Shown: positions 12,830-49,361 of the stretch, one piece after another
Position numbering within the stretch: position 1 is the first letter of the stretch
Layout of the letters: each line of letters opens with the position of its first letter
The notes under the pieces: generated by a model
What the model was told of the DNA's origin: nothing
Databases searched by the model: none
What the model saw: only the letters and a program-made list of their open reading frames with translations
Assembly (NCBI GenBank): GCA_918797485.1
Contig: CAKKNE010000006.1
Span: forward strand, 1,426,001 to 1,490,000
Length of the DNA stretch: 64,000 bases
Reading direction: 5' to 3'
Source of the DNA: Pelagomonas calceolata
Taxonomy: Eukaryota
Position numbers and translations under genes: made by a program

Positions 12830-13491
12830 CTAGTGGCCGAGCTGGTAGATGAATGGCGTGTACTGGCAACGCCAGTAGCCGAGGATGTGCCAGGCGATCT
12901 CCGGCGGACACCGGACGAGGAATTCGAGGCTTCGCATGTTCGGGCCGTTGTGGCGCGTCGCACGCGGGAGGACGGCGCGCCGTCGAAGCGCGAGGCTCCG
13001 GAGCCGAAGGACCGCCGCGCGAGGTCTCCGGTCGTAAGCTCTCCAGCCGCCGGCCGCGCGTACCCCTGCGACCACGACCCTCAGGGCATCGAAGCAGTTG
13101 CCGGGGGGCAGGGGCGGGTCAGCCCGGTTTTCTTGTTCATCCAGAAGCAGTTCGGAGGAATGGATAGTTCCAGTTACCGGGTTCCTCCAAGCACAATCCA
13201 GCGACGGCAGAGCTCGCATTAGCAAGAGTGACATCTCCATGCCAGAACGTGACGGTCCGGCTTGTCTCATTCTCTGGTACACCAGCGACAGCGGATTATG
13301 GTTTCGATAATTCAGCGCGAGAACGTTTGCCCCCGCGTTGAGCAAAAGAGCCGCTAGAGGGACCTCGGGCCCGGATTCTGAATGGCTACTCTCCCTGGCA
13401 CGGCCATAATTCCGACCATGTGCAGCGTAATGGAGCGGCGTGTACCCATGTTGGTCGCTGTGGTTCACGTCCGCGCCTCGCGCGAGCAAGA
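12830..13491 (-). pseudogene. 5'-truncated ankyrin-repeat gene fragment
   Basis: LLLARGADVN..D..GYTPLHYAA and LLLNAGANV. The coding signal begins abruptly at ~13491, and sequence further upstream is antisense WAVE. Confidence 0.6.
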
Positions 13492-41013: not shown

Positions 41014-41085
41014 GCTCCTATGGCTCAGTGGTAGAGCATTTGTCTTGTAAACAAAAGGTCCTGAGTTCAATCCTCAGTGGGAGCT
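41014..41085 (+). tRNA. tRNA-Thr(TGT), intronless
   Basis: Complete cloverleaf GCTCCTA...CTTGTAA...TTCAATC...TGGGAGC-T followed by oligo-T. Confidence 0.97.
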
Positions 41086-45767: not shown

Positions 45768-45989
45768 GGAGGTGGTTTTTTGTTTTCTGGTGCTGCTAGT
45801 TCGTTTCGTCCGGTGTGGTGCTTTGTGGCTGCTTGGGGGTTGCGCAGAGGGTCAGAGGCGGCCTGTTGACGTTTTTTTCGCGCCCTGCGATTTTTGACTC
45901 GCGGCGCAGCTGCTCAATTATGTCTTACGGGTTTTGTCTCGGGTCCCTTGTAGTCCGACGGAACCACCGATCTCTTTAAACAGAGGTCT

Positions 45990-46140
45990 GGTTCTATAGT
46001 CACGGATGTCTAGGTCAAGACACCGCTATCTTAGTTGGTTAGACGAGCCGTAAAAGGCTCGAGCACTGACTTCAGGTTCTGATTCTGACAGCCTGGGTTC
46101 GAAGGAGTTTTAAAACGCTCTGAAATTCCCAGTAGAACCT
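45990..46140 (+). tRNA. tRNA-Gln(CTG) with three BHB introns (46002-46031, 46043-46067, 46104-46126)
   Basis: Removing the introns gives a 73-nt cloverleaf GGTTCTA TA GTCT AGTTGGTTA GGAC T TCAGG TTCTGAT TCTGA CAGC CTGGG TTCGAAT CCCAG TAGAACC T; oligo-T terminator follows. Confidence 0.9.
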
Positions 46141-46752
46141 CTCTCTTTTTTTTGCTTTTTTGGGCTCCTGGAGACACGTTCTTTCGATTGACGGAGTTTG
46201 AGGACAATCGGCGTACGTCGTTTACCCCGTGAAACACGCGTGGGTACCAGAATCAAGGAAGATTGCACTATACTACCGCGGCCGCCGCGGGCGTCTCGCG
46301 CGATGGCGCCTCGTCCGACGACGCGAGCTCCAGTGGCGCGGAAGCCGCGCCGGTGTTGGGGAGAGGGCGCGTGCGATGCATAGGGAAATTGCAGCGCGGC
46401 GACGGCTCGACCGCCGCGGGCGCGTCCTCGCGTGCGAGCTCCGCCATTTCAAGTACACGCCACTACTTTAGGCGGCGTAAAAGGCTTGTTTTGGGCCCCT
46501 TGGCTTGGTAACGCGCCGCGCTGGTTCGCAGTCAGGAAGGCACAAGGCACAAAAATGGCCCTGGGGGCAGCCCTACCGTACAACCCACCGGTTTTTGGTT
46601 AGCCCTCGCGTGTGGGTGCTCTCGTAGCTGCCCCCTGATGGTCGCGCGCGCCGATGCACAAACTTGTATGTCGAGGGGGAGCGAGCCGCAAAGTCCGCCA
46701 TACCCCCCCAAAGCGAAGGGTGCGCACGGCGATGCAAAAAACAAAAAAAAAA

Positions 46753-46849
46753 TGGAGAATAGGGGATTCGAACCCATGACCTATCGCATGCGAAGCGATC
46801 GCTCTACCAACTCACTAGCGTTCTCTAGCTAGACCTGAGCTAATTCCCC
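46753..46849 (-). tRNA. tRNA-Ala(CGC) with a ~25-nt D-loop intron (46809-46833)
   Basis: Acceptor GGGGAAT/ATTCTCC with G3:U70, anticodon arm ATCGC-TTCGCAT-GCGAT, T loop TTCGAAT, oligo-T terminator; the insert forms a relaxed BHB. Confidence 0.9.
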
Positions 46850-48104: not shown

Positions 48105-49361
48105 TCAGTAGTACCCCGCGTGCAGCCAGAACTCCGCGACGCGGCGGGCTGGCTGGGCCGGAAGGCGAAGCATCGATGCAAAAGTCGGCCTGATCCGCGC
48201 GAGGTGGGCTTGCGCATACCTCTTGAAGCCGCCCGCGGCGACGACTCGCCCGAGGTACGGGTCCGGAGGATATGCGGCAGGCAGCTCGGCCCCGGCACGG
48301 AGAAATAAAGGCCACATACGGTGATACTCTCTTCGGAGTGCAAGGTCGAAAGGCGTCAGCCTGTGACCTTCTCTTAGATTCGGAGAAGCGCCTGCGGCCA
48401 GGAGCACTTCGACGCAACTGGTAGCCCTATGGTAGACTGCAAGGTACAGCGCCGTCTCTCCATCAGGGGTCTTCGCGTCAACATCAAGGCCCGCTTCGAC
48501 TAGTAACGAGACTATTTTAGTGTTTCCTCTGCGAGCCGCGTAGTGAAGCGAAGGCGTCAGCCCGTGACCTTCTCTTAGATTCAGAGAAGCGCCTGCGGCC
48601 AGGAGCACTTCGACGCAACCGGTAGCCCTATGACGTACTGCAAGGTACAACGCCGTCTCTTCATCAGGGGTCTTCGCGTCAACATCAACGCCCGCTTCGA
48701 CTAGTAACGAGACTATTTTAGTGTCGCCTCCACGAGCCGCGTAGTGAAGCGCCGTCTCTTTATCAAGGGTCGTCGCGTCAACATCAACGCCCGCTTCGAC
48801 TAGTAACGACACCATTTTAGTGTCGCCTCTGCGAGCCGCGTAGTGAAGTGGTGTAAGACCATAACCATCGGTCGCTTCCAAGTCTGCCCCAGCATCGCGA
48901 AGGAGCTCGAGACAGGCCGCGCAACCATCCGTAAAGCGTCGCACTTTGCACAACGCAAGAATTGGCGTTTCACCCTGAGGGTCTACCCCAAAGTAGAAGG
49001 ACTCCGGACGTTCGCGGAAGGAATCCGGCGCCTCGCAGAAGGAATTCGGCGAGGCTCCGGATGCAAGCAGTCGGCGGACCGCCTCGACGTCACCACGGGA
49101 TGCGGCATCGTGGATCGACTCCACGGGTGAATCCTTGCCCCCGGTGTCGCCAACACCAAAAAAAAAGGGGGGCGGCGGAGGCCGACCGCCCCAGGGATCA
49201 CGTCGACGGTCGGCCAGATATCCTTCCGTGCCCTCGGCGGTGACGATCGTCGACTCCTCGCACACGGTACCACATCTCACACAGACGGCTTCGGCCGAGC
49301 TCTCGTTCAAGTCGATGTCCGTGCTGCGGCACTCGGGGTTCGAGCAGCGCATCTGCGACAT
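48105..49361 (-). CDS. TFIIB/BRF1-type zinc ribbon fused to ankyrin repeats
   Basis: CSNPEC.STDID....EAVCVRCGTVCEESTIV, then ~7 ANK repeats (TALHYAARRG...LLVEAGVDVDA), several near-identical at the DNA level. Confidence 0.8.
   Translation of the reverse strand: MSQMRCSNPECRSTDIDLNESSAEAVCVRCGTVCEESTIVTAEGTEGYLADRRRDPWGGRPPPPPFFFGVGDTGGKDSPVESIHDAASRGDVEAVRRLLASGASPNSFCEAPDSFRERPESFYFGVDPQGETPILALCKVRRFTDGCAACLELLRDAGADLEATDGYGLTPLHYAARRGDTKMVSLLVEAGVDVDATTLDKETALHYAARGGDTKIVSLLVEAGVDVDAKTPDEETALYLAVRHRATGCVEVLLAAGASLNLREGHGLTPSLHYAARRGNTKIVSLLVEAGLDVDAKTPDGETALYLAVYHRATSCVEVLLAAGASPNLREGHRLTPFDLALRREYHRMWPLFLRAGAELPAAYPPDPYLGRVVAAGGFKRYAQAHLARIRPTFASMLRLPAQPARRVAEFWLHAGYY

What the first reader, a model, noticed from the sequence alone, without database searches (positions are those of the whole stretch)
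45990..46140. Cryptic tRNA-Gln(CTG) gene split by three archaeal-type BHB introns (12/13, 22/23, 59/60)
Seen: an apparently intergenic 151-nt stretch bounded by GGTTCTA/TAGAACC and followed by oligo-T. Intron 1 (46002-46031): helix ATAG/CTAT, bulges TCA and CTT, inner CGG/CCG, outer CT/AG. Intron 2 (46043-46067): bulges AGA and CTG, helix GGTT/AGCA with one mismatch, inner CGAGCC/GGCTCG. Intron 3 (46104-46126): helix TTCG/TGAA, bulges AAG and ATT, inner GAG/CTC, outer GGG/CCC. Cutting after the second base of each bulge (the known BHB rule) gives a canonical 73-nt tRNA-Gln. Established: most eukaryotic tRNA introns sit at 37/38. Multiple non-canonical BHB introns are known from archaea, the red alga Cyanidioschyzon and some nucleomorphs. 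Inference: this stramenopile nucleus has a position-independent BHB splicing system, which I do not know to be described in this lineage and which standard tRNA scanners would miss.
Basis: partly seen in the sequence, partly recalled or inferred. Interest (0 to 1): 0.95.

Follow-up and report, generated by a model that had tools for sequence, protein, structure and literature searches.

The report
Archaeal-style split tRNAs in pelagophyte alga
In a marine alga, likely a pelagophyte, a glutamine tRNA gene is cut into four pieces by three short inserts shaped like archaeal tRNA cut sites, which are likely removed by a shape-reading splicing enzyme, a gene layout I found in print for eukaryotes only in red algae and remnant algal nuclei.

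Summary
Observation confirmed. Removing exactly the three inserts gives a perfect tRNA-Gln(CTG). A blind splice scan recovers it at 36/36, while 0 of 3000 shuffles exceed 28. ARAGORN and Rfam miss it.

It is not alone. A tRNA-Ala(CGC) 600 bases away has a D-loop BHB intron. A relative (L005) has a different intron at that site, with two compensatory pairs, plus an extra intron at 2/3 in the acceptor stem; splicing both by the BHB rule gives the same 72-nt tRNA. Gln intron 2 shows a G-C to A-T pair swap in two studies.

The host is likely a pelagophyte. Not shown: spliced RNA, the enzyme, or absence of intronless copies. The central helices are not the predicted equilibrium fold.

The layout is known from Cyanidioschyzon, Chondrus and the Guillardia nucleomorph; ten paper searches found no stramenopile case. 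This scan noted similar genes before in giant viruses and Cyanidioschyzon, none in pelagophytes. Verdict: new member of a known kind, in an unexpected supergroup, with rapid intron turnover.

The parts
45990..46001 (+). tRNA-Gln(CTG) exon 1 (positions 1-12)
46002..46031 (+). intron 1, 30 nt, at 12/13 in the D-stem; strict BHB (helix 4/4, inner 3, outer 2)
   Evidence: (shuffle P 0.0011)
46032..46042 (+). exon 2 (positions 13-22, D-loop)
46043..46067 (+). intron 2, 25 nt, at 22/23; relaxed BHB (helix 3/4, inner 6); compensatory pair 46047/46058 in two other studies
   Evidence: (P 0.0019)
46068..46103 (+). exon 3 (positions 23-59, anticodon CTG, no intron at 37/38)
46104..46126 (+). intron 3, 23 nt, at 59/60 in the T-loop; strict BHB whose outer helix is the T-stem
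   Evidence: (P 0.0057)
46127..46140 (+). exon 4 (positions 60-73; no encoded CCA)
46146..46153 (+). run of 8 T, likely RNA polymerase III terminator
   Evidence: sequence; function from established knowledge
46753..46849 (-). second split gene: tRNA-Ala(CGC), miscalled by ARAGORN as 46754-46825; run of 10 T follows at 46752-46743
46809..46833 (-). Ala D-loop intron, 25 nt, after G16; BHB helix 4/4, inner 5; replaced by a different intron with two compensatory pairs in L005, which also has an extra 27-nt intron at 2/3 (L005 743-769)

Best explanation
This is a nuclear tRNA-Gln(CTG) gene split by three short inserts at positions 12/13, 22/23 and 59/60, likely functional, which are likely cut out of one precursor by a tRNA splicing endonuclease predicted to read the local bulge-helix-bulge shape and not the distance from the tRNA body. 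Steps: (1) shown: four exons that rebuild a perfect cloverleaf, BHB geometry in the one register that rebuilds it, an oligo-T after it, and pair-keeping changes in relatives; (2) inferred: RNA polymerase III makes one precursor of about 155 nt; because intron 1 sits inside the A-box positions and intron 3 inside the B-box positions, transcription would depend less on an intact internal promoter, as proposed for C. merolae; (3) inferred: TSEN cuts after the second base of each bulge and a tRNA ligase joins the exons; the central helices are only 0.9 to 4.6 kcal/mol above the predicted best fold and would be captured by the enzyme one at a time, intron 1 being cheapest to form and needing the lower acceptor stem open; (4) inferred: because any site that can form a BHB is tolerated, introns are gained, lost and replaced quickly, as the Ala gene shows between two close relatives.
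For: Only removal of all three inserts gives tRNA-Gln, 1 of 8 subsets. Blind scan: 3 tRNAs in 64 kb, Gln at 36/36, Ala at 35/36; nulls 0 of 3000 above 28 and 0 of 30 windows. For each of 4 window introns only 1 of 9 shifted registers meets the BHB criterion, and intron shuffles meet it in 0.1 to 0.6% of 20,000 trials. Motif-free boundaries include the BHB register for all three Gln introns. L005: different Ala D-loop intron, 9 of 9 pairs kept, 2 compensatory, plus an extra 2/3 intron (shuffle P 0.0012); BHB splicing gives a mature tRNA identical to the window's at 72 of 72 positions. Gln intron 2: G-C to A-T in runs X15 and X7, two studies. In X15 record 8 all 10 listed changes within the Ala gene fall inside the predicted intron, none in the exons. 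No GT-AG ends and no terminal repeats in the introns. CAG and GCG are the preferred codons (30 vs 10 CAA; GCG 112) in five window ORFs. Precedent with RT-PCR proof in C. merolae (PMC3728597).
Against: No spliced junction was seen in any RNA run; these libraries are poly(A) or contigs and do not capture tRNA, so this is absence of a test. Central helices have pairing probability of 0.22 or less in ViennaRNA at 20 C and none of 6 motifs is the free minimum as an isolated piece (the constraint may understate them). The pair-shuffle control for the Ala intron is not significant with two sequences (104 of 500). In X15 record 8 the listed substitutions, read without its 5 gap columns and 7 unlisted changes, keep 2 of 5 inner pairs (1 compensatory) and break 3: inconclusive. 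An X7 contig has a one-base deletion at 46102, which would turn the first bulge of intron 3 into a relaxed loop (table truncated). Conservation in L002 is weak support because 516 nt downstream also show 0 substitutions. No genome was held, so TSEN subunits, TFIIIC and intronless copies were not checked.
Confidence: 0.88

Rival explanations
1. A dead tRNA gene broken by three hairpin insertions, with an intronless Gln(CTG) gene elsewhere doing the work.
For: No transcript seen. An intronless copy could not be excluded. The window holds a decayed tRNA-Trp-like relic, so relics do exist here.
Against: Exons score 36 of 36 with an intact terminator. All inserts have BHB geometry in the tRNA-restoring register. 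Changes in relatives fall in introns and keep pairs. No target-site repeats.
Confidence: 0.05
2. The inserts are removed, but by another machinery (spliceosome, or a hairpin-cutting nuclease plus ligase), possibly at slightly different junctions.
For: The inner hairpins are more stable than the central helices. For D-loop introns several junction choices fit a cloverleaf (7 of 90 for Gln intron 2; 25 of 84 for Ala). Earlier scan notes describe spliceosome-type inserts in tRNA genes of another marine stramenopile (unchecked).
Against: Intron ends are AC..CT, AC..CT, GG..AT, TC..TT, TC..AT, TT..CA, none GT..AG, and lengths are 23 to 30 nt. The 4-bp helix between exon and intron and the 3-nt offsets are the TSEN signature and are kept in all six introns. 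The alternative Ala junction with the more usual 8-nt D-loop would make the two relatives' tRNAs differ; the BHB junction makes them identical.
Confidence: 0.05
3. The genes or introns came recently from outside (giant virus, archaeon or red-algal endosymbiont) and are passengers, not a native pelagophyte trait. This concerns origin and is compatible with TSEN splicing.
For: Earlier scan notes report ectopic BHB introns in giant-virus tRNA genes (unchecked). Ochrophyte plastids are of red-algal origin and red algae have such introns (PMC13578239; origin recalled).
Against: The genes sit singly between ordinary nuclear genes, lack encoded CCA and end in oligo-T. Exact exon motifs were not found in viral contigs (0; 4 non-tRNA chance loci) or prokaryote genomes. 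The introns differ between close relatives, so turnover is local.
Confidence: 0.12

Closest known systems
[quoted passage not shown] 2013, PMC3728597; read parts 1-2 of 6)
   Same: Nuclear tRNA genes with one to three short introns outside 37/38, BHB or relaxed BHB junctions, interrupted A and B boxes, oligo-T terminators, missed by standard scanners.
   Different: Different supergroup (stramenopile host nucleus, not Archaeplastida). All three Gln introns are ectopic, whereas the three-intron tRNA-Ile analysed there includes 37/38. The positions listed there are D-stem, D-loop, variable arm, T-stem and T-loop; the L005 Ala intron is in the acceptor stem (2/3) and uses the 5' leader for its helix. 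No permuted gene was seen in this window. Expression is proven there and untested here.
Atypical introns of Chondrus crispus and of the Guillardia theta nucleomorph (as summarised in PMC13578239, PMC4090602, PMC3978253; passages only)
   Same: Non-canonical D- and T-arm introns in eukaryotic tRNA genes, up to three per gene in G. theta.
   Different: Both are red-algal genomes by descent; many G. theta introns lack a defined BHB, whereas all six here have one.
Multi-intron tRNA genes of Thermoproteales and Asgard archaea (PMC4090602 passages; bioRxiv 10.64898/2026.10.13.758758 passages)
   Same: BHB-defined introns at 22/23, 59/60 and other sites, several per gene, repeated gain and turnover.
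   Different: Here the gene is eukaryotic in type (no encoded CCA, oligo-T terminator, nuclear neighbours). PMC4090602 the extreme archaeal position; 2/3 is one base further out.
Canonical eukaryotic 37/38 tRNA introns cut by the four-subunit ruler-type TSEN (PMC10485636, section 6 and passages)
   Same: Same enzyme family and bulge chemistry are inferred.
   Different: That enzyme is described as removing only 37/38 introns; none of the six introns here is at 37/38.

Membership tests
Eukaryotic nuclear tRNA genes with ectopic BHB introns (C. merolae type) | Exons rebuild a canonical tRNA after intron removal | tested here: met
Eukaryotic nuclear tRNA genes with ectopic BHB introns (C. merolae type) | Introns lie outside 37/38 | tested here: met
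   12/13, 22/23, 59/60; Ala after 16 and 2/3
Eukaryotic nuclear tRNA genes with ectopic BHB introns (C. merolae type) | BHB or relaxed BHB motif at the junctions, in the register that restores the tRNA | tested here: met
   4 of 6 introns have a 4/4 helix, 2 of 6 have 3/4
Eukaryotic nuclear tRNA genes with ectopic BHB introns (C. merolae type) | Pairings kept by compensatory change in relatives | tested here: met
   3 compensatory pairs in complete comparisons; two further variants inconclusive because tables are truncated; few sequences
Eukaryotic nuclear tRNA genes with ectopic BHB introns (C. merolae type) | Located in a eukaryotic nuclear genome, oligo-T terminator, no encoded CCA | tested here: met
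Eukaryotic nuclear tRNA genes with ectopic BHB introns (C. merolae type) | Spliced mature tRNA detected in cells | tested here: inconclusive
   no reads on either tRNA gene in 4 poly(A) runs of one sample; no spliced joint in 2 RNA contig sets; libraries unsuited to tRNA
Eukaryotic nuclear tRNA genes with ectopic BHB introns (C. merolae type) | Cut by a TSEN with relaxed, position-independent specificity | not testable with these tools
   no genome held; no enzyme assay
Canonical eukaryotic intron-containing tRNA genes (37/38, ruler mechanism) | [quoted passage not shown] | tested here: not met
   anticodon loop is uninterrupted in exon 3
Spliceosomal introns in non-coding RNA genes | GT..AG ends | tested here: not met
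   0 of 6 introns
Permuted or trans-split tRNA genes | Exons out of order or on separate loci | tested here: not met
   exons are collinear within 151 nt

The most novel reading that the evidence does not exclude
Pelagophytes, a stramenopile class that includes abundant ocean picoplankton, run an archaeal-style, position-free tRNA splicing system in their own nucleus, independent of red algae, and their tRNA introns are actively turning over within natural populations, reaching even the acceptor stem (2/3) with a helix borrowed from the 5' leader. A large part of their tRNA set would be invisible to current annotation, and such hosts could be what splices the ectopic tRNA introns noted in giant viruses.
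Probability: 0.6. Interest if true: 0.85.

Novelty: new member of a known kind. Interest (0 to 1): 0.7.

Why it matters
A 2023 review (PMC10485636, section 6) names as open whether the simpler two-subunit-type TSEN enzymes predicted for eukaryotes outside animals and fungi can remove introns at non-canonical positions, and warns that tRNAscan misses such genes. A 2026 review (PMC13578239) lists such introns only for red algae and the red-derived G. theta nucleomorph and leaves ancestry versus convergence unresolved. A case in a stramenopile host nucleus bears directly on both questions and supplies defined substrates, with natural variants, for testing. It also means that tRNA inventories of pelagophyte genomes are probably incomplete: 2 of the 3 intact tRNA genes in this window are split, one missed and one miscalled. 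Intron presence and sequence differing between close relatives offers a view of tRNA intron gain and loss in progress in a eukaryote.

Tried and rejected
Whole-genome search: no genome held, so no census, no intronless-copy check, no TSEN or TFIIIC search.

Poly(A) raw reads X21-X24 (one sample, 6 to 12% of each run read): zero depth over both tRNA genes; they show only that the locus lies outside the neighbouring mRNA, whose reads fall off at about 45900-45925. RNA contigs X9 and X15: no spliced joint; X15 holds unspliced gene and intergenic contigs and may contain DNA, so it is no evidence of transcription. Loose ends at 46805-46806 look like unrelated intronless tRNAs and were set aside.

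Metagenome pattern scan: 14 loci, 2 true (L002, L005), 12 dropped as chance or unrelated, including an intact intronless tRNA (anticodon CGG) in L008. Viral scans: 0, 0, 0 and 4 loci; the 4 are not tRNA. Prokaryote genome scans: 0 and 0.

A fourth intron in the Gln leader was considered: the scan offers one only at a lower score with a broken acceptor pair; rejected. An A-box-like motif at 12834 is not followed by a tRNA. One search was a script with an index error and gave nothing; one search is the corrected version. My B-box pattern also missed the intronless Thr gene, so the promoter argument rests on intron positions, not on that pattern. Maruyama et al. 2010 is not held.

Full report
OBSERVATION. 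Each insert has a 4-nt exon segment that pairs with the end of the insert, a 3-nt bulge on each strand and an inner hairpin. Of the 8 subsets of removed inserts, only removal of all three gives an intronless ARAGORN tRNA-Gln(ctg) with a full cloverleaf. The insertion points number 12/13, 22/23 and 59/60. Eight T follow at 46146-46153 and no CCA is encoded. ARAGORN and Rfam do not find the gene.

IS IT CHANCE? BHB-like shapes are common: 421 lenient and 28 strict candidates in 350 nt. What is rare is their agreement with the tRNA frame. A blind scan that splices any combination of up to three or four BHB candidates ahead of an oligo-T finds 3 tRNAs in 64 kb: intronless Thr(TGT) at 41014 (36 of 36 points), this Gln (36 of 36) and an Ala(CGC) on the minus strand (35 of 36). 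With the gene ends fixed and the interior shuffled, 0 of 3000 trials score above 28; 0 of 30 shuffled windows give any hit at 30 or more; shuffled introns meet the BHB criterion in 0.11, 0.19, 0.57 and 0.16% of 20,000 trials; and only 1 of 9 shifted registers meets it for each intron. My thresholds were chosen after seeing the introns, so I also placed boundaries by cloverleaf score alone: 2 of 90, 7 of 90 and 5 of 90 choices reach the top score for the three Gln introns, and the BHB register is among them each time.

HOST. The window is 63.5% G+C. This rests on one protein. Neighbours are ordinary nuclear genes (SNARE, cyclin, ABC1 kinase, ankyrin repeats; 5 of 8 scanned ORFs had a Pfam match), and poly(A) reads cover the divergent upstream gene but not the tRNA genes. 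The stretch is held by 20 of 24 listed runs from 11 studies, many of them seawater metagenomes. No call names the species; the G+C content and habitat fit Pelagomonas calceolata (recalled).

A SECOND SPLIT GENE AND A NATURAL EXPERIMENT. The Ala(CGC) gene at 46849-46753 has a 25-nt BHB intron after G16; ARAGORN miscalls its 5' end. One metagenome scan gave 14 loci, 2 of them true. L002 has the Gln gene unchanged at 151 of 151 positions against 9 substitutions in 220 nt upstream, but 516 nt downstream also have no substitution, so this is weak. L005 (83% alike over 1.5 kb) has the 78 covered Gln positions unchanged and a different intron at the same Ala site: all 9 pairs are kept, 2 by change on both sides, while slid controls pair 17 to 44%. 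With two sequences the pair-shuffle control is not significant (104 of 500). L005 also has a 27-nt insert at position 2/3 of the acceptor stem, absent from the window, with a 7-bp inner hairpin and a 3-of-4 central helix formed with the 5' leader (shuffle P 0.0012). Cutting both by the BHB rule gives a tRNA identical to the window's at 72 of 72 positions. Of the 25 top-scoring Ala junction choices, 8 give identical products in the two relatives; the BHB choice is one of them and the choice with the more usual 8-nt D-loop is not. L005 is a single contig, not confirmed by reads.

VARIANTS IN OTHER RUNS (its tables omit 54 substitutions and 27 indels). Runs X15 and X7, from two studies, both change 46047 and 46058, turning a G-C pair of Gln intron 2 into A-T. 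In X15 record 8 the 10 listed changes within the Ala gene all lie inside the predicted intron, from its first base to its second-last, and none in the exons; read without the record's 5 gap columns they keep 2 of 5 inner pairs and break 3, which I count as inconclusive. An X7 contig has five listed changes at 46102-46118, in and just before intron 3, with none listed in the central helix or second bulge; the deletion at 46102 would make the first bulge a relaxed loop. No run shows a spliced joint.

HOW IT LIKELY WORKS. From established knowledge (PMC4090602 passages; PMC10485636), TSEN/EndA enzymes cut after the second base of each BHB bulge; archaeal forms read only the local shape, while the yeast and human form measures from the tRNA body and cuts only at 37/38. 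None of the six introns here is at 37/38, none has GT..AG ends and the four in the window have no terminal repeat. I infer a position-independent TSEN and a tRNA ligase. Folding at 20 C predicts the inner hairpins mostly formed but the central helices not (probability 0.22 or less), at a cost of 0.9 to 1.1 kcal/mol for intron 1, 3.2 to 4.6 for intron 2 and 3.8 to 3.9 for intron 3 (similar for isolated motifs). This counts somewhat against the model; it also suggests capture by the enzyme and ordered removal, as shown for C. merolae. Intron 1's helix needs the lower acceptor stem open; intron 3's outer helix is the mature T-stem. Intron 1 lies within the A-box positions and intron 3 within the B-box positions, so transcription would have to tolerate a broken internal promoter, as argued for C. 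merolae; TFIIIC could not be checked. CAG (30 against 10 CAA) and GCG (112) are the favoured codons in five window ORFs of 1947 codons, so both tRNAs would be in demand.

WHAT IS KNOWN. C. merolae has 42 introns in 27 nuclear tRNA genes, 25 of them ectopic, three genes with three introns, and RT-PCR proof of splicing (PMC3728597, parts 1-2 of 6 read). A 2026 review lists non-canonical introns for C. merolae, Chondrus crispus and the G. theta nucleomorph and none for stramenopiles (PMC13578239, passages and part 3 of 14). PlantRNA 2012 reports introns in Phaeodactylum and Ectocarpus tRNAs found with tRNAscan-SE, with no mention of atypical positions in the passages seen (PMC3531208). Passages of PMC3978253, PMC4033280, PMC8450103, PMC8975779, PMC11237714 and bioRxiv 10.64898/2026.10.13.758758 add no stramenopile case. 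Searches. Not seen: Maruyama 2010, Kawach 2005, PlantRNA 2.0, pelagophyte nuclear genome papers and all supplements; these could hold an unnoticed mention. Earlier notes of this scan describe the same architecture in giant viruses and C. merolae and spliceosome-type inserts in tRNAs of other marine protists, but nothing in a pelagophyte or like this sequence; they are unchecked leads.

VERDICT. The gene and its BHB introns are real, with confidence about 0.95; that they are spliced in the cell by a shape-reading TSEN, about 0.88. It works like the C. merolae and archaeal systems and meets every defining feature that could be tested; expression and enzyme are untested. It is a new member of a known kind. 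Its interest comes from the lineage, from the acceptor-stem intron and turnover between close relatives, and from making a stated open question about eukaryotic TSEN testable. Interest 0.7.

Noticed in passing
window 46849-46753 (-) and L005 741-864 (+): tRNA-Ala(CGC) with a D-loop BHB intron, miscalled by ARAGORN; the relative L005 has a different intron there and an extra intron at 2/3 in the acceptor stem.
   Followed up: yes
window about 2303-2246 (-): The 3' three quarters of a tRNA-Trp(CCA)-like sequence with a perfect T-arm, one mismatch in the anticodon stem, a degenerate 5' part and no oligo-T; no matching 5' half found in the window. Likely a relic; a split half is not excluded.
   Followed up: partly
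window 45969-45988 (+): A 7-bp hairpin with an A/T-rich loop directly before the Gln gene; its loop varies in L002, X15 and X7 while the stem is mostly kept. It resembles the intron hairpins but gives no valid splice. Unexplained.
   Followed up: partly
window 41014-41085 (+): Intronless tRNA-Thr(TGT) with intact A box, 71.2 bits in Rfam: split and unsplit tRNA genes coexist in this genome.
   Followed up: yes
window 45895-46080, run X7: A contig (depth 12.5) matches upstream of 45895 and from 46080 on, with unlike or missing sequence between: possibly an orthologue with different introns 1 and 2.
   Followed up: no
window 48105-49361 (-): ORF that begins with a weak TFIIB-type zinc ribbon (E 6e-4, below cut-off) and continues in frame into ankyrin repeats; may be two genes or exons read together.
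   Followed up: no
window 46316-46352 and 46396-46436: Short stretches between the two tRNA genes match many unrelated contigs at high depth; probably G+C-rich low-complexity matches or a small repeat.
   Followed up: no
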